Source: a bacterium
GTDB lineage: Bacteria; Patescibacteriota; Andersenbacteria; UBA10190; CAIZMI01
Assembly (NCBI GenBank): GCA_030647555.1
Contig: JAUSJG010000008.1
Coordinates: forward strand, 193,467-257,466
Length of the DNA stretch: 64,000 nucleotides
Direction: 5' to 3'
Shown: in pieces, positions 54,416 to 64,000 of the stretch
How positions within the stretch are numbered: position 1 is the stretch's first letter
Layout: each line of letters opens with the position of its first letter
Translations under genes and position numbers: made by a program
Notes under the pieces: generated by a model
Seen by the model: only the letters and a program-made list of their open reading frames with translations
Database searches by the model: none
What the model was told of the DNA's origin: nothing

Positions 54416-54489
54416 TCCGGGATCGTCTAACGGCAGGACGCCGCTCTTTGGAAGCGATAATCTTGGTTCGATTCCAAGTCCCGGAGCCA
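54416..54489 (+). tRNA. tRNA-Gln (anticodon UUG)
   Basis: Acceptor stem TCCGGGA/TCCCGGA, T-arm CTTGG-TTCGATT-CCAAG, anticodon loop CTTTGGA, discriminator G, and an encoded CCA. Confidence 0.8.
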
Positions 54490-55326: not shown

Positions 55327-56193
55327 CTAGCTTCCCTGGATTCCGAATTTTCGCCAGATAAAACGGAAGGAATAACCGGCCATAAAAATCAACACCAAAG
55401 CAACAATACTAACGTAAAGAATATCAAAAAACGATACTCTTCCGGTACCGAGCCAGGCCGTTCGTGCAAACGAGAGCGCGGTATTGAGCGGATTGTAGCG
55501 AATCAACGGATCCAATAGGATATTTAAGGGGTGGGGAAGTTTGTCGATAACTTCAATCGGGTAGAAAAACGGCGTCAGAAAAGTAAACGCCGAAATTATG
55601 TATGACAAAAACGGCGTAATGTTTTCCGTAGCCAATGAAGCGCCACCAAAAATTAATCCCACACATAAACCGATTAAAGTTACTAAAATAAACATGAGAA
55701 ATGCGAGTAAAAAACCGGCAAAAGTGGTAGGGTATATAACCCATAAGGCCAAAAGGAAGGCGAAAAAAGTGGGAGTATTTTTAACAATTTCTGATATTCC
55801 AAAACCAACAATAATCGCGGAGGTTTTTACCGGAGTAATAAATAAAAGCTCAACAGTACGCGACCACTTGTCTCTTTGAAATTTATCTTTAAAAACCGAG
55901 GTGCTGGCACGCCAAGTAGTGTGAAATATTATTCCTAAAGCCAAAAAAGGAATATATGTTTCCTTCGTTAAGCCGGGGATTGGAGAAATGGCGTTTTGAC
56001 CCACCGTTGCCACATAAACCGTAAGAATCGGGATAAGTCGGCCAAGCGGTGAGACGATGCTTTGAAAAATATAAGAGATCGCGAATCGTAAATCGATCTG
56101 TATTTCTTTGCGGGCGATCGCCAACGTCTCGCGGATAGTGTTATTTTGATAAAACATGTTTTTTGTGAAGGGTTGGACAATAATTTTTATCAC
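55327..56193 (-). CDS. ABC-2 type polysaccharide exporter permease (Wzm/TagG-like)
   Basis: Six TM segments. Translationally overlaps the ATPase gene. The true start is possibly an internal Met. Confidence 0.7.
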   Translation of the reverse strand: MIKIIVQPFTKNMFYQNNTIRETLAIARKEIQIDLRFAISYIFQSIVSPLGRLIPILTVYVATVGQNAISPIPGLTKETYIPFLALGIIFHTTWRASTSVFKDKFQRDKWSRTVELLFITPVKTSAIIVGFGISEIVKNTPTFFAFLLALWVIYPTTFAGFLLAFLMFILVTLIGLCVGLIFGGASLATENITPFLSYIISAFTFLTPFFYPIEVIDKLPHPLNILLDPLIRYNPLNTALSFARTAWLGTGRVSFFDILYVSIVALVLIFMAGYSFRFIWRKFGIQGS

Positions 56194-56989
56194 CGGATAA
56201 GGTTTTTCTTAGCAGTCCCTGTACAAATTCAATAATGGAGAGGGTTTTTTTGCCGACGTGAGTTGGGGCAACCTCGGACAAATCCGTAAAATTAACATCC
56301 CTGACAAGCTCGCCTCGATGCAAAAGAATTAATCGCTCTGTCATATTTTCAATATCCTCCAAGTTGTGTGTCGCTAAAATAATCGTTGCTTTGCTCTTCA
56401 TAATTATTTCTTTTGCTTCTTCCGCGAAATGAAGATCAAACGCGCCAAATGGTTCATCTAAAATTATAAGTGACGGATCGGGTAATAAAACACGCGCAAA
56501 ATCGAGTCGAGAAACCATTCCCGTGGAATATTGTTCGACATATTTATCAATAACGTCTGATAGCCCGACAATCTCTGCCATTTTTTTTATTCTTTCTTCG
56601 CTGTGCTTGATGTGATAAAGATTGGCGATGAATCGTAAATTTTCGTAACCGGTCAGTTGGCGATAAATAAGGGGAAACGCTGCCATATAACCAACAGGTT
56701 GTCTGTCGGGACTGGATGCTTCCACACCATCAATAATCATTGTACCGTTTGCCGGATTAAGAGCTCCTGCCATCGTTCGAAACAATGTTGTCTTTCCCGC
56801 GCCATTCATTCCTACAACACCGACCCGTTCGCCAGGGGAAATATTTAAAGAAATATTGTGAAGAGCCCGAAAATGGTGGTGCGAATGAGTTTGTCCTGTG
56901 CCAAGTAATTGTTTTTTTAGAAACCAATTAAAAGGTAACGGATAATCAACACTAAGATGGTTTATCTCGATAGAACTTCCTTGGATCAT
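56141..56989 (-). CDS. ABC transporter ATP-binding protein (Wzt/TagH-like)
   Basis: Walker A 'GVVGMNGAGKTT', signature 'YSTGMVSRL' and Walker B 'IILDEP'. Confidence 0.85.
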   Translation of the reverse strand: MIQGSSIEINHLSVDYPLPFNWFLKKQLLGTGQTHSHHHFRALHNISLNISPGERVGVVGMNGAGKTTLFRTMAGALNPANGTMIIDGVEASSPDRQPVGYMAAFPLIYRQLTGYENLRFIANLYHIKHSEERIKKMAEIVGLSDVIDKYVEQYSTGMVSRLDFARVLLPDPSLIILDEPFGAFDLHFAEEAKEIIMKSKATIILATHNLEDIENMTERLILLHRGELVRDVNFTDLSEVAPTHVGKKTLSIIEFVQGLLRKTLSGDKNYCPTLHKKHVLSK

Positions 56990-57181
56990 TGAGGATATTA
57001 TAGCGGAAATATAAAGAAAAGTAACTCGAATTGTTGAAAAGAGTGCTTATTGATAAAAATGGGCCTGAATTATGATAATGATCAATGAATGGTGAGTGGA
57101 CAAAGTGGAAACATATTCATAAATCATTAATCATATATCGTTATTCACAAAATGGATGTATTCCACTATCTTTTGTATATG

Positions 57182-57622
57182 GATAAACTGGTTCTCGACA
57201 CAAATGTCTTAATTGATGGTATTAAGGATGAAAATTCCGCCGCCTGGCAGATTATTAATGCCGTGTTTGAGAGAAAGGTTGAACTATATGTTAGCCACCC
57301 TGTCGTGAGAGAATATCGACGCATTTTGCAACGGGAAATTTCCGATCCGGCGTATAGTGAACGTGTTTTGGGTTTGCTCGATCTGGCGATCAAAATTGAT
57401 GTACATAATATTCAGCGCCTGGTTGTGGACGATCCGGAAGATGACAAAGTGATCGCCACGGCACTTACTGCCGGCGCGGACGCGTTGATTTCGGAAGATA
57501 AACATCTATTGGATTTAGACAAGCAATACGATTTAAGAATTATGAAACCGAAGGAATATCTTAATCGTAACCAGCAAGATTCTTCATGGAGTGACTTTGC
57601 TAAGCTAATCGGGTTAAACTAG
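57182..57622 (+). CDS. PIN-domain nuclease (COG1569-type, TA-toxin-like), orphan
   Basis: 'LVLDTNVLIDG' and 'DDPEDDKVIATALTAGADALISED'. No adjacent antitoxin ORF. Confidence 0.7.
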   Translation, partial: DKLVLDTNVLIDGIKDENSAAWQIINAVFERKVELYVSHPVVREYRRILQREISDPAYSERVLGLLDLAIKIDVHNIQRLVVDDPEDDKVIATALTAGADALISEDKHLLDLDKQYDLRIMKPKEYLNRNQQDSSWSDFAKLIGLN

Positions 57623-57627
57623 AGTAG

Positions 57628-58923
57628 ATGGTTATTGATCGTAGGAAAATATTATTTATCGCGTCCGCGATATTTTTTGTGTTGACTGCGAGTGTTAGTA
57701 GAGCGCAAGAGGTAAATAACAATGGTGATGCGGTTATTGATAATTCCGCGGCAATATTGAGTAAAGAAGCGGAATTAAAAGCAGTTCAAGAAAAAATTGA
57801 TGCCCTGAACACGGCGAAAAAGGTGCATGAACTGGAAAAGAATAATTTAGTACGATCGATCGATATAATAAACGATAACATTCAATCAACGCGTCTGGAG
57901 TTAGATAAAACGGCAATTTCAATTGATTTCGCGCGATTGCAAATTAAAGATAATCAACAAGGCATGAAAAATGCGGAAAAACAAGTCAATGGTTTACGAG
58001 TGGAGTTGCAAGGTATTTTGCGAGAGATGAGCGCTTTAGACCAGCTTTCCTTGTGGCAATCTCTATTTTCCAAAGGATCATTCACAGACTTTCTACAGGC
58101 CAATGGGGCGTTTAGCTCTCTCCAGCGCAAGATGATGAATAATATCGTAGTCGCGCAAGACGCGCGAAAAGTGCTGGGAAAACAAAAAAATGATCTAATC
58201 CAGAAGCAAGAAGATCTTTCTCAATTGCAGGGCTTGCAAGAAGCGCAAAAAAACTCTCTTAACGCGGAAGAAGGGAATAAACAAACGGCGCTAACAAAAA
58301 CTGTTGCCGAACAAAAAAAGGTTTCCGGTCTTATCGCTGAAGCGGAACAAGCCAGAACGGAAATCAATCAAAAATTATTTTCTTTGCGCAGTGCCGGAAT
58401 TAGTATGTCATTGACGGATGCCTTAAAAATGGCCAAATATGCCGGAAAAGTGACGGGGGTGAGACCGGCACTATTACTTGGTGTTTTAAAAATTGAATCA
58501 AATCTTGGCACAAATGTCGGTTCCGGTCGCTATCCCGACGATATTCACCCATTGCATCGCGAAGCGTTTCTTCGAGTCGTAAAAAAACTTGGCCTAGACT
58601 TTGCAACGGCGCCGGTTTCCGCAAAACCGAAATCTTATCCGGGTTGGGGTGGGGCAATAGGGCCGGGACAAATTATGCCGGGAATTTGGGAAAGTATCGA
58701 AAATACAGTTGCCGAGCTAACGGGACGCGCCCTTCCATCGCCGTATAATCTGCAAGACGCCTTTGTGGCGACGGCAATTATTTTGCGAAACTCGGGCGCG
58801 GTCTCGGGAAGTGAGTTTGAAGCGGTAAATCGCTACTTCGCGGGAGGAAACTGGCAACGATTTACCTGGTATGGGGATAGAGTGTTGGCTGTCGCTAAGG
58901 AGTATGAGAGTAACGAAATATAG
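57628..58923 (+). CDS. Secreted or anchored coiled-coil protein with a C-terminal MltB-like lytic transglycosylase domain
   Basis: N-terminal hydrophobic segment, a coiled coil of about 250 aa, then 'LGVLKIESNLG', 'GAIGPGQIMP' and 'RYFAGGNW' SLT-type motifs. Confidence 0.5.
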   Translation: MVIDRRKILFIASAIFFVLTASVSRAQEVNNNGDAVIDNSAAILSKEAELKAVQEKIDALNTAKKVHELEKNNLVRSIDIINDNIQSTRLELDKTAISIDFARLQIKDNQQGMKNAEKQVNGLRVELQGILREMSALDQLSLWQSLFSKGSFTDFLQANGAFSSLQRKMMNNIVVAQDARKVLGKQKNDLIQKQEDLSQLQGLQEAQKNSLNAEEGNKQTALTKTVAEQKKVSGLIAEAEQARTEINQKLFSLRSAGISMSLTDALKMAKYAGKVTGVRPALLLGVLKIESNLGTNVGSGRYPDDIHPLHREAFLRVVKKLGLDFATAPVSAKPKSYPGWGGAIGPGQIMPGIWESIENTVAELTGRALPSPYNLQDAFVATAIILRNSGAVSGSEFEAVNRYFAGGNWQRFTWYGDRVLAVAKEYESNEI

Positions 58924-58983
58924 TGTTTCTATTATTATAGTATCGTTATAAAACTTAAGGAACGACTGTGTAAAATTGCCTCC

Positions 58984-59115
58984 AAAATTTTCAATTATCA
59001 ATTTTACAATTTTCAATTAATTTTCAAAATTATAATTATCAAACGATGGCGGTTTTTTGAAAATTTGGTCATTTAGAAATTAATTGAAAATTGGCCATTG
59101 ATAATTGATAATTAA
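58984..59115. repeat. Intergenic palindromic element, family E, copy 2
   Basis: AAATTTTCAATTATCAATTTTACAATTTTCAATTAATTTTC ... GAAAATTGGCCATTGATAATTGATAATT, plus an internal TTTGGTCATTT. Confidence 0.75.
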
Positions 59116-59141
59116 AGATCTTGAGTTATACTCTTTGAGCA

Positions 59142-62069
59142 ATGTCTGTTAAAAAACAAGGGAAAACAAAAAAGATTAGCATCGATCTCTCTGATCTCAA
59201 TACCGAGCAACGCGCGGCCGTAACGCACGAAAAGGGGCCGCTTTTGCTGATTGCCGGCGCCGGTACGGGCAAAACAACGGTAATCGCGAATAAAATTTTG
59301 TGGTTAATCCAAGAACGGGGCATAAGACCGGATAATATACTCGCCCTTACTTTTACGGAAAAAACCGCGAAGGAAATGGAAGAACGCGTTGATCGTTTAC
59401 TTCCTATGGGTTTAAGTAGGGTGCGCATCGCCACCTTTCACGGTTTCTGCGAGCGCCTGCTCCGCGACTACGCGATTGAAATCGGACTCGATCCGTCGTT
59501 TAAAATCTTAACCGTTCCCGAGCAATGGTTGTTGTTGCGGAGGCATCTTTTTGAATTGCCGTTGAATTATTACCGTCCGCTCGGCAATCCCACCAGCTTT
59601 ATCAAAGATATTGTCCGCGCCATCGGTGCTTCTAAAGACCAAGATTTGATGCCCGAACGCTATATTTCCTACGCCGGAGTTTTAAGAGAATCCGCGGAGA
59701 CGGAAAACGACGAAAAAAAGAAAGCGGGTCTGCTCGAATCGGCCGTACGCTGGAACGAATTTGGCGAGGTCTATCGCGCCTACCAGCAAATTGTTTTGCA
59801 AGAAGGAGCGATGGATTTCGGCGATATTATTCTTAACGCTGTACGTCTTTTGGAAGAACGCCCCTCGGTGGCGATGCGTCTCCGCGAAACTTTAGAAGAA
59901 GTTTTAGTGGACGAATTTCAGGACACCAACGGCGCACAAAATACACTTCTTCGCCTTTTAGTGCCGGACAAAAATGGCCAAATCACTGTGGTGGGTGACG
60001 ACGATCAATCCATTTATGCTTGGCGTGGTTCCAATATCGCCAACATTCTCACATTTCAAGAATGGTATCCGGGCGCGAAAAAAATTGTCCTAACCAAAAA
60101 TTATCGTTCCCCCCAAACCTTACTTGATTCGGCGTATAAACTGATTCAGTTTAATAATCCAATGCGGTTGGAAAAAACCGCCAACGTTGATAAGCGCCTG
60201 CAAAGCGCCACGGGGGAACAAAACAGTCTTTCCGTTTCGCACCATCATTTTCCAACCATTGAAGATGAGTGCGCGTTTATCGCCGATCAAATTATTTACG
60301 GCGTGGAAAAAATGAATCGGTCGTTGAGCGACTTTACAATTCTTTTACGCGCCAACGCGCAATCTGATATTATCGTTCCGGCGCTCATTCAGCGAGACAT
60401 TCTTTTTCATGTTTCGGACGCGCGCGGATTACTGCTTCGGCCGGAGGTGCGCGACGTGATCGCCTATTTGCGCGTGGTTTTTAATCCGCGCGACAATGTT
60501 TCTATTTTTCGGCTAATTTCGCATCCGATTTATAATCTCGCGCCATATGAACGCCAGCGTTTATTTAATGACAGTCGGCAGGAAAATTTTGATTTGACGG
60601 AAAAATTACGCACGGCCAGCAAGCAACCGGAATATTCCGAAGAAACTAAAACCGGTTTAAAAAAGTTTATCGATTTGCTCGATCAGCACGTCGCCAGTGC
60701 CCCTTCGGCGCAACCGTCGCGAATCGCGCTCGAATATCTCCAAAAAAGCGGATATTTGGAGTGGGCGATTAAAAATAGCGAGCAAACTCCCGAAATTCTG
60801 CCGAATATCAGCGAGTTTGTGCAATTTATCAAGGAATACGAACGCTCCGACCAAGAAGCCTCGTTATTAAGCTTTTTGGATTATCTTGAACTGGTTGTTT
60901 CCTCCGGCGAAAGCCCCGCGCAAGCTTCATTGAGTGGTGATTTTGAAGCGGTAAAAATTCAAACCGTACACAGCGCGAAAGGCTTGGAATTTCCTGTCGT
61001 GTTTATTTTAGGGGCCACGAAAGATAAATATCCGGGAGCAAACAGAAGCAATCCATTGGAAATTCCAAATTATTTTTCCGACAGCCAGGGAATTGACGAA
61101 CGTGAAGCGCACACAATGGAAGAACGGCGCTTGTTTTACGTGGCGATGACGCGCGCCAAGGAAAGACTTTTTATTACTTCCGCCAGTCAAAGTTTGACCG
61201 GCAAATCGATCAAGAAACCATCGTTATTTATTGAAGAAGCGGAAATTGAAACCGTGGCGGGCAAAGGAACAACCATCGCCCAACAATTAAAATTACCGAT
61301 TAGTTTGGAGAAAAAAGCGACCAAAAATTCGATTTCTTTGACCATTCCTAAAACAACCAGTGTTTCGCAAATTGAAAACTACGAAAAATGCCCATTGCAA
61401 TATAAATTTCAGTATATCTATCGCATTCCTGTTTTACAGGGCCACGCGATGACATTTGGAAATACAATCCATAAAATATTGAAAGAGGTGGCGCAAAAAG
61501 TGACCGCCGGACAAACACTGGAGATTGCCGACGCGCTTTCGTTATATAAAAAACATTGGAACAGTGACGGTTTTGAGGACCGTCAACATGAAGAAGAGCG
61601 TAAAGAAAAAGGAAAAATAATTTTAACCGCCTATCTGGAAGCCAATCCGTACTTGTTAAATACCAAACCGCTTTATGCGGAAGAATCTTTTCGCTTGCGG
61701 ATCGATGATGTAATAGTAAATGGGCGCATCGACCGCGTTGATAAAATTGACGGGCTGATAACGGTTACCGATTTCAAAACAGGAAAAGTAAAAGATCAAA
61801 AAGACGCGGATAAAAGTTTACAGCTTTCCGTGTACGCAATCGCGCTCAAAGACGCTTTTGATATCAAGGCGGAGCGTCTGGTTTTATCATATTTGGAAGG
61901 GCCAACCGACCGTCGCACGACGCGCACCGACGCGGTTTTGAAAAAAACGCGCAAAAGATTGATGGAAACGGTTAACAAAATAGTCGCGCAAGATTTCACC
62001 CCCAAACCGGAAAAAATGACCTGTCACTTCTGCGCCTTCAATAAAATCTGCGACTTCTCGCTGGAGTAA
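59142..62069 (+). CDS. UvrD/PcrA-like SF1A helicase fused to a C-terminal PD-(D/E)xK (RecB/Cas4-like) nuclease domain with a Cys cluster
   Basis: 'LIAGAGTGKTT', 'VDEFQDTN', 'VHSAKGLEFPVVF', then 'RIDRVDK...VTDFKTGK' and 'CHFCAFNKIC'. Confidence 0.85.
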   Translation: MSVKKQGKTKKISIDLSDLNTEQRAAVTHEKGPLLLIAGAGTGKTTVIANKILWLIQERGIRPDNILALTFTEKTAKEMEERVDRLLPMGLSRVRIATFHGFCERLLRDYAIEIGLDPSFKILTVPEQWLLLRRHLFELPLNYYRPLGNPTSFIKDIVRAIGASKDQDLMPERYISYAGVLRESAETENDEKKKAGLLESAVRWNEFGEVYRAYQQIVLQEGAMDFGDIILNAVRLLEERPSVAMRLRETLEEVLVDEFQDTNGAQNTLLRLLVPDKNGQITVVGDDDQSIYAWRGSNIANILTFQEWYPGAKKIVLTKNYRSPQTLLDSAYKLIQFNNPMRLEKTANVDKRLQSATGEQNSLSVSHHHFPTIEDECAFIADQIIYGVEKMNRSLSDFTILLRANAQSDIIVPALIQRDILFHVSDARGLLLRPEVRDVIAYLRVVFNPRDNVSIFRLISHPIYNLAPYERQRLFNDSRQENFDLTEKLRTASKQPEYSEETKTGLKKFIDLLDQHVASAPSAQPSRIALEYLQKSGYLEWAIKNSEQTPEILPNISEFVQFIKEYERSDQEASLLSFLDYLELVVSSGESPAQASLSGDFEAVKIQTVHSAKGLEFPVVFILGATKDKYPGANRSNPLEIPNYFSDSQGIDEREAHTMEERRLFYVAMTRAKERLFITSASQSLTGKSIKKPSLFIEEAEIETVAGKGTTIAQQLKLPISLEKKATKNSISLTIPKTTSVSQIENYEKCPLQYKFQYIYRIPVLQGHAMTFGNTIHKILKEVAQKVTAGQTLEIADALSLYKKHWNSDGFEDRQHEEERKEKGKIILTAYLEANPYLLNTKPLYAEESFRLRIDDVIVNGRIDRVDKIDGLITVTDFKTGKVKDQKDADKSLQLSVYAIALKDAFDIKAERLVLSYLEGPTDRRTTRTDAVLKKTRKRLMETVNKIVAQDFTPKPEKMTCHFCAFNKICDFSLE

Positions 62070-62150
62070 AAAATGGGAACAAAAAGTGGGGAGCCGCCAT
62101 ACCCCTCTTTTTTTAAAGAGGGGCGAGGGGAGATTCCGTCGTCATTCGTA

Positions 62151-62192
62151 GGGGGTCCGTTCCTGTTACGCAGCGTCGGACACTGATCGACG
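62151..62192 (+). repeat. GGTCGGAC hairpin repeat (family C), copy 2
   Basis: GGGGGTCCGTTCCTGTTACGCAGCGTCGGACACTGATCGACG. Confidence 0.6.
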
Positions 62193-62239
62193 TAAAAAAA
62201 CGGAAGGGTGGAATTCAAAATGAGAGAGTCCGGTACTTC

Positions 62240-62268
62240 TTGCAAACAAAACACGAACGATTTATAAT
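62240..62268 (+). promoter_or_regulatory. Near-consensus σ70-type promoter TTGCAA-17-TATAAT upstream of the DinD-like gene
   Basis: TTGCAAacaaaacacgaacgattTATAAT. Duplicated at 63252-63280. Confidence 0.6.
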
Positions 62269-62297
62269 AATGATGTAAAACAATTAATTTAATAAAT

Positions 62298-63134
62298 ATG
62301 AATATTGAAATAACAACACAAATAGCGTTATTCAGAGGTGAAAAAATTAGAAGGACGCTTCATCAAAACGAATGGTGGTTTTCAGTGGTGGACGCGTGCG
62401 GAGTTCTTACAGACAGTAAAGATGCTGGGGCATATTGGCGAAAACTCAAGCAGAGATTAATTGAAGAGGGAAGCGAGGTCGTGACATTTTGTCACGGACT
62501 GAAATTGGAAGCCACAGACGGTAAAAAATACGAAACCGATTGTGCTACAACTGAAGGTCTCTTTCGTATCGCGCAGTCCATCCCATTCTCCAAAGCCGAG
62601 CCTTTTAAGCGCTGGTTGGCCAAGGTGGGGTATGAACGCGTGCAAGAAATTGAAAATCCCGAACTGGCCACAAAAAGAACACGCGTTCTTTACAAACTCA
62701 AAGGATACTCGGATAATTGGATTGAAAAAAGAATGCGTGGTATCGCTATTCGGGAAGAATTGACCGATGAGTGGCTAAAACGGGGAGCACAGGAAGAAAG
62801 AGATTATGCAATTCTTACCGCGGAAATATCCAAAGTGGCTTTTGGTGTTACGCCCAACGAATACAAAAAACTTAAAGGTTTGAAACGGGAAAATCTGCGT
62901 GATCATATGGATGATTTTGAGCTAATTTTTACAATGCTGGGAGAACGATCTACCACGGAAATCCATCGCACTGAAAATTCGAAAGGTGTTCCAAAACTGC
63001 GTAGTGACGCAAAAGCCGGAGGCGAAATTGCCGGTGGCGCAAGAAAAAAACTAGAAGATCGTCTTGGTCGTTCGGTGGTTACGAAAAATAACTTTTTCCA
63101 AAAACCGGCGGATAAAATGGACTTGAAAAAATAG
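62298..63134 (+). CDS. dinD: DinD-like DNA-damage-inducible protein (Bro-N domain)
   Basis: Bro-N-like 'NEWWFSVVDACGVLT' and a DinD-like 'FGVTPNEYKKLKGLKRENLRDHMDDFELIF' segment. Confidence 0.65.
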   Translation: MNIEITTQIALFRGEKIRRTLHQNEWWFSVVDACGVLTDSKDAGAYWRKLKQRLIEEGSEVVTFCHGLKLEATDGKKYETDCATTEGLFRIAQSIPFSKAEPFKRWLAKVGYERVQEIENPELATKRTRVLYKLKGYSDNWIEKRMRGIAIREELTDEWLKRGAQEERDYAILTAEISKVAFGVTPNEYKKLKGLKRENLRDHMDDFELIFTMLGERSTTEIHRTENSKGVPKLRSDAKAGGEIAGGARKKLEDRLGRSVVTKNNFFQKPADKMDLKK

Positions 63135-63168
63135 GATGAACGAATAATTGTTGTTGTTGCGTAGTAAA

Positions 63169-63215
63169 AGGGTCCGTCCTTGCCGTACAAGGTCGGACTC
63201 TGATTGGCGTGCGTC
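63169..63215 (+). repeat. GGTCGGAC hairpin repeat (family C), copy 3
   Basis: GGGTCCGTCCTTGCCGTACAAGGTCGGACTCTGATTGGCG. Confidence 0.6.
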
Positions 63216-63251
63216 GCTCACCCTCCCCAAAAAAACGTCCACAACTCGCTC

Positions 63252-63280
63252 TTGCAAACAATACACGAACGTCATATAAT
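63252..63280 (+). promoter_or_regulatory. Second copy of the TTGCAA-17-TATAAT promoter module
   Basis: TTGCAAacaatacacgaacgtcaTATAAT. The ATG lies 5 nt downstream, so the mRNA may be leaderless. Confidence 0.6.
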
Positions 63281-63284
63281 AATT

Positions 63285-63560
63285 ATGAAAGCGAAGGGGG
63301 AAAGCAATATATTATTAATTCAATTAGTATATGAAATACAAAAAAATAAAATTGTTCCGAATAACAGTTATACGGAATTTTTGCTTTATACCACTCCGAA
63401 CGGCAAGGTAAAAGTTGAAATATTTTTACGAAATGAAGATATCTGGCTGACTCAAGCAAAAATCACTGAACTTTTTGGCGTTGAAAGAAGTGTTGTTACA
63501 AAGCACCTGCAAAATATTTATTTAGACAAGGAGCTCAAAAAGGAAGCAACAAGTCAATAA
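63285..63560 (+). pseudogene. RhuM-family N-terminal fragment (truncated)
   Basis: 'LYTTPNGKVKVEIFLRNEDIWLTQAKITELFGVERSVVTKHLQNIY' matches the RhuM N-terminus. It stops after about 91 aa, whereas the family is about 330 aa. Confidence 0.5.
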
Positions 63561-63632
63561 TTGCACAGGTTAAAATGAGGGAGAAAAATAATAATGAATT
63601 TAAAAAATATCGGGTTTGAAATTAAATAAAAT

Positions 63633-63971
63633 ATGTATATTTTTTTAGACGAAAGCGGACAGTTCATAAAACACAATGACGATGATTATTTTGTTGTAGC
63701 ATCTTTTACTGTTGATGATCCGCGGCGAACGCAAAAAAGATTTAAAACCTGGCAGAAAACAAGGTTCCCCAAAAGAATGCGCAATCAGGCGGAAATAAAA
63801 TATTCTGCGGTAGATATTTCCGAATTACTGCGTTTGAGGACGCTAAAGTTTATTTCTAGACTTGATGTGCGAATAAATTATACATTCCTGAAGAGAAAAA
63901 ATATTCCTGACAATTTTGTTAAGAAAAACAAAAATAAATTATACATTCCTGAAGAGAAAAAATATTCCTGA
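63633..63971 (+). pseudogene. DUF3800-family gene, frameshifted by a 61-bp tandem duplication
   Basis: 'MYIFLDESGQF' DUF3800 N-terminal hallmark. The duplication at 63876-63997 shifts the frame to a premature TGA. Confidence 0.5.
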
Positions 63972-63997
63972 CAATTTTGTTAAGAAAAACAAAACTC
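63876..63997 (+). repeat. Perfect 61-bp tandem duplication (2 copies)
   Basis: AAATTATACATTCCTGAAGAGAAAAAATATTCCTGACAATTTTGTTAAGAAAAACAAAA repeated head-to-tail. Confidence 0.85.
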
Positions 63998-64000
63998 AAC

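What the first reader, a model, noticed from the sequence alone, without database searches (positions are those of the whole stretch)
57182..64000. Decaying accessory island: orphan PIN nuclease, coiled-coil MltB-like hydrolase, UvrD–RecB-nuclease fusion, DinD-like gene, truncated RhuM gene and broken DUF3800 gene
Downstream of the envelope operons the gene content becomes mobile- and defence-flavoured. It starts with a COG1569-type PIN toxin that has no antitoxin partner. Next is a secreted coiled-coil protein with a lytic transglycosylase domain, of the kind used by phage or tail-like machines. Then comes a UvrD helicase fused to a Cas4/RecB-like Fe-S nuclease. After it lie a DinD-like Bro-N protein, an N-terminal fragment of RhuM and a DUF3800 gene disrupted by a tandem duplication. 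There is no integrase or capsid gene, so this looks like a degraded island, not an intact prophage.
Basis: partly seen in the sequence, partly recalled or inferred. Interest (0 to 1): 0.55.

Follow-up and report, generated by a model that had tools for sequence, protein, structure and literature searches.

The report
Core gene block plus small insert
This is not one decaying island: the first three genes are inherited housekeeping genes of a tiny-genome (Patescibacteria) bacterium, and only the last ~2 kb is a small, partly broken insert of widely travelling, defence-associated genes.

Summary
All six ORFs exist, and the domain calls hold. The single-island reading does not.

**Core block (57,179-62,069).** The PIN_3 gene, the 431-aa membrane-anchored coiled-coil/lysozyme-like hydrolase ('CCLT') and the 975-aa PcrA/UvrD helicase with a Cas4/AddB-type Fe-S nuclease keep the same order in eleven fetched loci from relatives. 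Protein identity there is 37-83% for these three genes (50-81% for the neighbouring ABC pair), and GC is at the window average. The PIN is not an orphan toxin. Its gene sits directly upstream of CCLT across this clade, and at least seven relatives encode PIN and CCLT as one polypeptide (PIN-TM-coiled coil-hydrolase). CCLT resembles the division autolysins PcsB, EnvC and RipA, not a specific phage lysin.

**Insert (62,070 to at least 64,000).** Relatives go straight from the helicase to a small ORF, GT2, GT4 and rplU. The window instead has three genes:
- an intact Bro-N gene (PADLOC PDC-S13), about 80% identical across many phyla and embedded in R-M and CRISPR loci elsewhere;
- a 91-aa stub of a ~343-aa RhuM;
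- a DUF3800 gene frameshifted by a perfect 61-bp tandem duplication, which could be an assembly artefact.

The stub and DUF3800 are about 11 GC points below average. The right boundary lies beyond the window.

Ordinary overall; the PIN-CCLT linkage is the only mildly new item.

The parts
55327..56989 (-). ABC-2 permease (55,327-56,193) and ABC ATPase (56,141-56,989), transcribed divergently from the PIN gene. They form the left part of the conserved block and lie outside the finding's coordinates.
   Evidence: Pfam ABC2_membrane and ABC_tran. They show 50-81% aa identity and the same position in L001/2, L004, L005/6, L016, L017 and L019.
57179..57622 (+). PIN_3 nuclease gene. It is 147 aa from the ATG at 57,179 (the start used in the NCBI record) or 156 aa from 57,152. 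It is a core gene and partner of the downstream hydrolase.
   Evidence: PIN_3 E 2e-19; TIGR00305 E 8e-13. It lies directly upstream of the CCLT gene in L001/2, L004-6, L010, L016-19, L022 and L028, and is fused to it in P0252, P0296, P0326, P0331, P0335, P0336 and P0353. The acidic residues (DTNV, EY, DDxxDxK, DxHLL) are invariant in the 12 aligned PIN sequences.
57628..58923 (+). CCLT: a 431-aa protein with an N-terminal signal/anchor helix, an antiparallel coiled-coil hairpin (about residues 39-248) and a C-terminal GH23/SLT-like muramidase domain (about 262-428; conserved E290 in the motif 'KIESN').
   Evidence: AF2 pLDDT 85. Foldseek PDB matches include SMC coiled coils, GH23 chitinase 3w6f (TMt 0.63), EnvC-FtsX 8tzl/6tpi, PcsB 4cgk and RipA 6ewy. 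SLT_2 is weak at 19.1 bits. E290 is invariant in 67 homologues.
59142..62069 (+). 975-aa single-chain helicase-nuclease: a PcrA/UvrD-type SF1 helicase with a C-terminal Cas4/AddB-type four-cysteine Fe-S PD-(D/E)XK nuclease. It is a core gene.
   Evidence: Pfam and NCBIfam hits. Best PDB sequence match is PcrA 1pjr, E 3e-93. Walker A, DEFQD, C750/C961/C964/C970, D864/D877/K879 and Q894/Y898 are invariant. Orthologues occupy the same position in L001/2, L004-6, L008, L010, L016, L017, L019 and L101.
62070..62297 (+). Left junction of the insert. It contains a hairpin CCCCTC-T7A3-GAGGGG at about 62,102-62,123, just after the helicase stop, and copy 1 of a ~130-nt leader/promoter element (62,153-62,278; TTGCAA-17-TATAAT).
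62298..63134 (+). Intact 278-aa Bro-N protein: an N-terminal Bro-N domain plus a helical C-terminal domain. It matches PADLOC candidate PDC-S13 and is a horizontally mobile accessory gene.
   Evidence: PDC-S13 E 4e-115 over positions 5-273 of 286. Homologues in Omnitrophota, Nitrospirae, Planctomycetota, Elusimicrobia and Patescibacteria are 78-90% identical. Contexts elsewhere are SNF2/MmeI-type R-M (L007), cas4-cas1 (L012), MNT/HepT-like (L013) and a T4SS/dnaA region (L096).
63135..63284 (+). Copy 2 of the ~130-nt leader/promoter element (63,170-63,290, running into the stub's first codons). It has a hairpin box and TTGCAA-17-TATAAT.
   Evidence: The hairpin folds with z = -2.3 in this copy only.
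63285..63560 (+). 91-aa 5' stub of a RhuM-family gene (PADLOC PDC-S05). About 270 codons are missing. GC is 0.315.
   Evidence: NCBI calls it hypothetical protein MDO8512260.1.
63633..64000 (+). DUF3800 gene, N-terminal ~100 codons. As assembled it is interrupted by a perfect 61-nt tandem duplication (63,872-63,932 and 63,933-63,993), with a stop at 63,969-63,971. The original frame resumes in copy 2 and runs off the window. GC is 0.323.

Best explanation
The 6.8-kb stretch is two unrelated things side by side.

**(A) 57,179-62,069: a vertically inherited core block of a small-genome Patescibacteria (Parcubacteria-type) bacterium.**
- The PIN_3 gene and the next gene (CCLT: membrane anchor, coiled-coil hairpin, GH23/SLT-like muramidase) form a functionally linked pair.
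- Inferred topology: the PIN domain is cytoplasmic, and the coiled coil and hydrolase are outside the membrane.
- In some relatives the two are one polypeptide joined by the transmembrane helix. In the window's clade they are two genes 5 nt apart.
- Inferred function: CCLT is an endogenous cell-wall remodelling or division hydrolase of the PcsB/CwlO/EnvC/RipA architectural type. Its coiled coil holds or docks the catalytic domain.
- Inferred, weakly: the PIN domain supplies a cytoplasmic (probably Mg-dependent RNase) activity or regulatory input tied to it.
- The 975-aa protein is the lineage's PcrA/UvrD-type helicase carrying its own Fe-S nuclease. It is most likely a single-chain DNA-end-processing or repair enzyme (AddAB/AdnAB-like chemistry in one chain). 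It is not a defence gene.

**(B) 62,070 to beyond 64,000: a lineage-specific insertion or replacement.**
- It sits at the point where relatives continue with a small membrane ORF, GT2, GT4 and rplU.
- It carries three unrelated hitch-hiker genes of the type that accumulate in R-M, CRISPR and defence loci: an intact, promoter-equipped Bro-N/PDC-S13 gene; a dead 5' stub of rhuM; and a DUF3800 gene split by a 61-bp duplication.
- There is no mobility machinery within the window, so it is a small defence-flavoured accessory patch in partial decay, not a prophage.
For: **Shown, core status.**
- Eleven fetched loci from relatives keep the order PIN, then CCLT, then helicase where they reach that far: L001/2, L004, L005/6, L008, L010, L016, L017, L019 and L101. 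In the close relatives the ABC permease and ATPase genes lie on the other strand just upstream.
- In those loci PIN is 37-69% identical, CCLT 53-83% and the helicase 42-82%.
- GC of the block is 0.437 against 0.429 for the window.

**Shown, PIN-CCLT link.**
- Seven homologues of 562-620 aa read seamlessly from the PIN tail ('SSWSxFAKxxG') into the TM helix.
- One fusion was verified as a single ORF on DNA (L009).
- PIN acidic residues are invariant in both split and fused forms.

**Shown, CCLT fold.** E290 is invariant, and other hydrolase-domain residues are invariant or nearly so.

**Shown, helicase-nuclease.**
- The catalytic and Fe-S residues are invariant.
- All 120 best homologues share the architecture, across Patescibacteria, WWE3, KSB1 and Bipolaricaulota.

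**Shown, insert.**
- In all eight independent relatives that reach past the helicase, the next genes are a small ORF followed by GT2. GT4 and rplU follow wherever the contig extends far enough.
- None of those downstream genes occurs anywhere in the window.
- Bro-N stays ~80% identical across phyla, while the helicase falls to ~39% outside its clade.
- Bro-N homologues lie inside R-M and CRISPR operons. A full-length RhuM lies inside a type I R-M operon, as the literature describes (PMC3710099).
- Both genes match PADLOC defence candidates.
- The RhuM stub and DUF3800 have GC 0.32.
- For the truncation and the frameshift.
Against: - The window ends inside DUF3800. The right boundary, the size of the insert and whether GT2-GT4-rplU resume downstream are all unknown. 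A rearrangement breakpoint would look the same.
- No relative closer than about 74-82% helicase identity was available, so there is no within-species presence/absence comparison.
- Bro-N GC (0.43) does not differ from the host.
- PIN is missing next to more distant CCLT homologues (L020, L021, L023-25 and all at 35% identity or less). The pairing is therefore clade-restricted.
- Nothing tested here shows what the PIN domain does.
- The coiled-coil similarity to EnvC, PcsB and RipA has weak Foldseek E-values (0.05-0.2) and could be generic.
- The perfect 61-bp duplication could be an assembly artefact, in which case DUF3800 is intact.
Confidence: 0.78

Rival explanations
1. One reading: all six genes form one decaying accessory or defence island. 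The PIN would be an orphan TA toxin, the hydrolase a phage or tail-type lysin, and the helicase-nuclease a defence enzyme.
For: - NCBIfam names the PIN 'putative toxin-antitoxin system toxin component'.
- The helicase hits many PADLOC GajB and DRT helicase models.
- PIN hits one PHROG of unknown function.
- The flank left of the ABC pair varies among relatives, and a tRNA-Gln lies at 54,416-54,489.
Against: - The three genes are syntenic and intact in the eleven fetched relative loci, with host-like divergence and GC.
- PIN is fused to the hydrolase in seven proteins.
- The GajB hits cover only the generic UvrD core, and no GajA/OLD partner is adjacent.
- The hydrolase has no PHROG hit and no specific viral fold match.
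Confidence: 0.05
2. The right-hand genes are the visible edge of a larger, possibly functional defence island lying mostly beyond the window, for example an R-M or BREX-like system. Bro-N would be an embedded accessory gene, and 'decay' would be overstated.
For: - The 90%-identical Bro-N homologue sits between an SNF2/PLD helicase and an MmeI/Eco57I-type methyltransferase. Another sits between cas4 and cas1.
- Full-length RhuM lies between hsdS and hsdR.
- Bro-N here is intact and has a near-consensus promoter.
Against: - Nothing beyond 64,000 could be retrieved.
- Upstream of Bro-N is the core helicase, not a defence gene.
- rhuM is unambiguously truncated, with only 72 nt before the next gene.
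Confidence: 0.3
3. The DUF3800 'disruption' is an assembly artefact: two sequence ends sharing a 61-62-nt overlap were joined without merging. The gene would be intact in the organism.
For: - The two copies are 100% identical and number exactly 2.0.
- Deleting one copy restores an ORF collinear with 204-230-aa homologues.
- The source is a metagenome-assembled genome.
Against: - The duplication lies inside a 257-kb contig, not at a contig end.
- NCBI annotated the 112-aa product as it stands.
- The neighbouring rhuM stub shows that real decay occurs at this locus.
Confidence: 0.35
4. PIN and CCLT are only neighbours by chance of local synteny. PIN would be a solitary housekeeping RNase unrelated to the wall hydrolase, and the 'fusions' would reflect incidental loss of a stop codon.
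For: - PIN is absent next to many more distant CCLT homologues.
- No biochemical link between PIN domains and peptidoglycan hydrolases is known to me, and the literature search found none.
Against: - The fusions are diverse (41-56% identical to the window protein) and fall into at least two groups.
- They keep invariant PIN catalytic residues and a conserved tail leading into the TM helix.
- Adjacency persists down to ~36% CCLT identity (L022, L028).
Confidence: 0.25

Closest known systems
Coiled-coil peptidoglycan hydrolases and activators controlled across the membrane: PcsB (S. pneumoniae), CwlO (B. subtilis), RipA/RipC (Mycobacterium), EnvC (E. coli/Vibrio)
   Same: CCLT has an N-terminal export or anchor signal, a long antiparallel coiled-coil hairpin and a C-terminal wall-hydrolase-type domain. 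Foldseek lists EnvC-FtsX (8tzl, 6tpi), PcsB (4cgk) and RipA (6ewy, 9hmx). JGI names some homologues 'CwlO-like' or 'EnvC'.
   Different: - The catalytic domain is GH23/SLT-like, not CHAP, NlpC/P60 or LytM.
- No FtsEX is adjacent; the neighbouring ABC system is ABC-2 type.
- The conserved cytoplasmic partner is a PIN domain, which none of the known systems has.
MltB / SLT_2 (PF13406) lytic transglycosylases and GH23 goose-type lysozymes
   Same: There are weak SLT_2 hits in the window protein and several homologues. The fold matches GH23 catalytic domain 3w6f. A Glu is invariant in the motif 'ESN'.
   Different: The score is below Pfam's gathering cut-off (19.1 against 24.3). No PDB sequence match was found. 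The coiled-coil N-terminal half is absent from MltB.
VapC-type PIN toxins / TIGR00305 (COG1569) PIN_3 proteins
   Same: The domain family matches above the cut-offs, and all four acidic residues are present.
   Different: There is no upstream antitoxin gene. The gene is conserved vertically and either fused to or followed by a membrane hydrolase.
PcrA/UvrD helicases and the helicase-nucleases AddAB, AdnAB and RecBCD; Cas4
   Same: The SF1A helicase core is closest to PcrA (1pjr, E 3e-93). The C-terminal PD-(D/E)XK nuclease has the C...CX2CX5C Fe-S motif, as in AddB and Cas4.
   Different: - It is one 975-aa chain, not a two- or three-subunit complex.
- No adjacent AddB/AdnA-like partner and no cas genes or CRISPR array occur nearby.
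- Scores are far below the equivalog cut-offs for pcrA, uvrD, addA and recB.
PADLOC phage-defence candidate PDC-S13; E. coli DinD
   Same: The match to PDC-S13 is full length (E 4e-115). DinD shares the N-terminal Bro-N domain, a similar length and a faint collinear C-terminal motif.
   Different: PDC-S13 is only a candidate, and no experimental validation was found. Sequence similarity to DinD is not significant.
RhuM family (PADLOC PDC-S05), embedded in type I R-M operons
   Same: The N-terminal ~60 residues are 53-62% identical to annotated RhuM proteins. The defence-locus association is described in PMC3710099.
   Different: Only the first ~70 of ~343 residues remain. The RhuM core (toxin-like) domain is missing.

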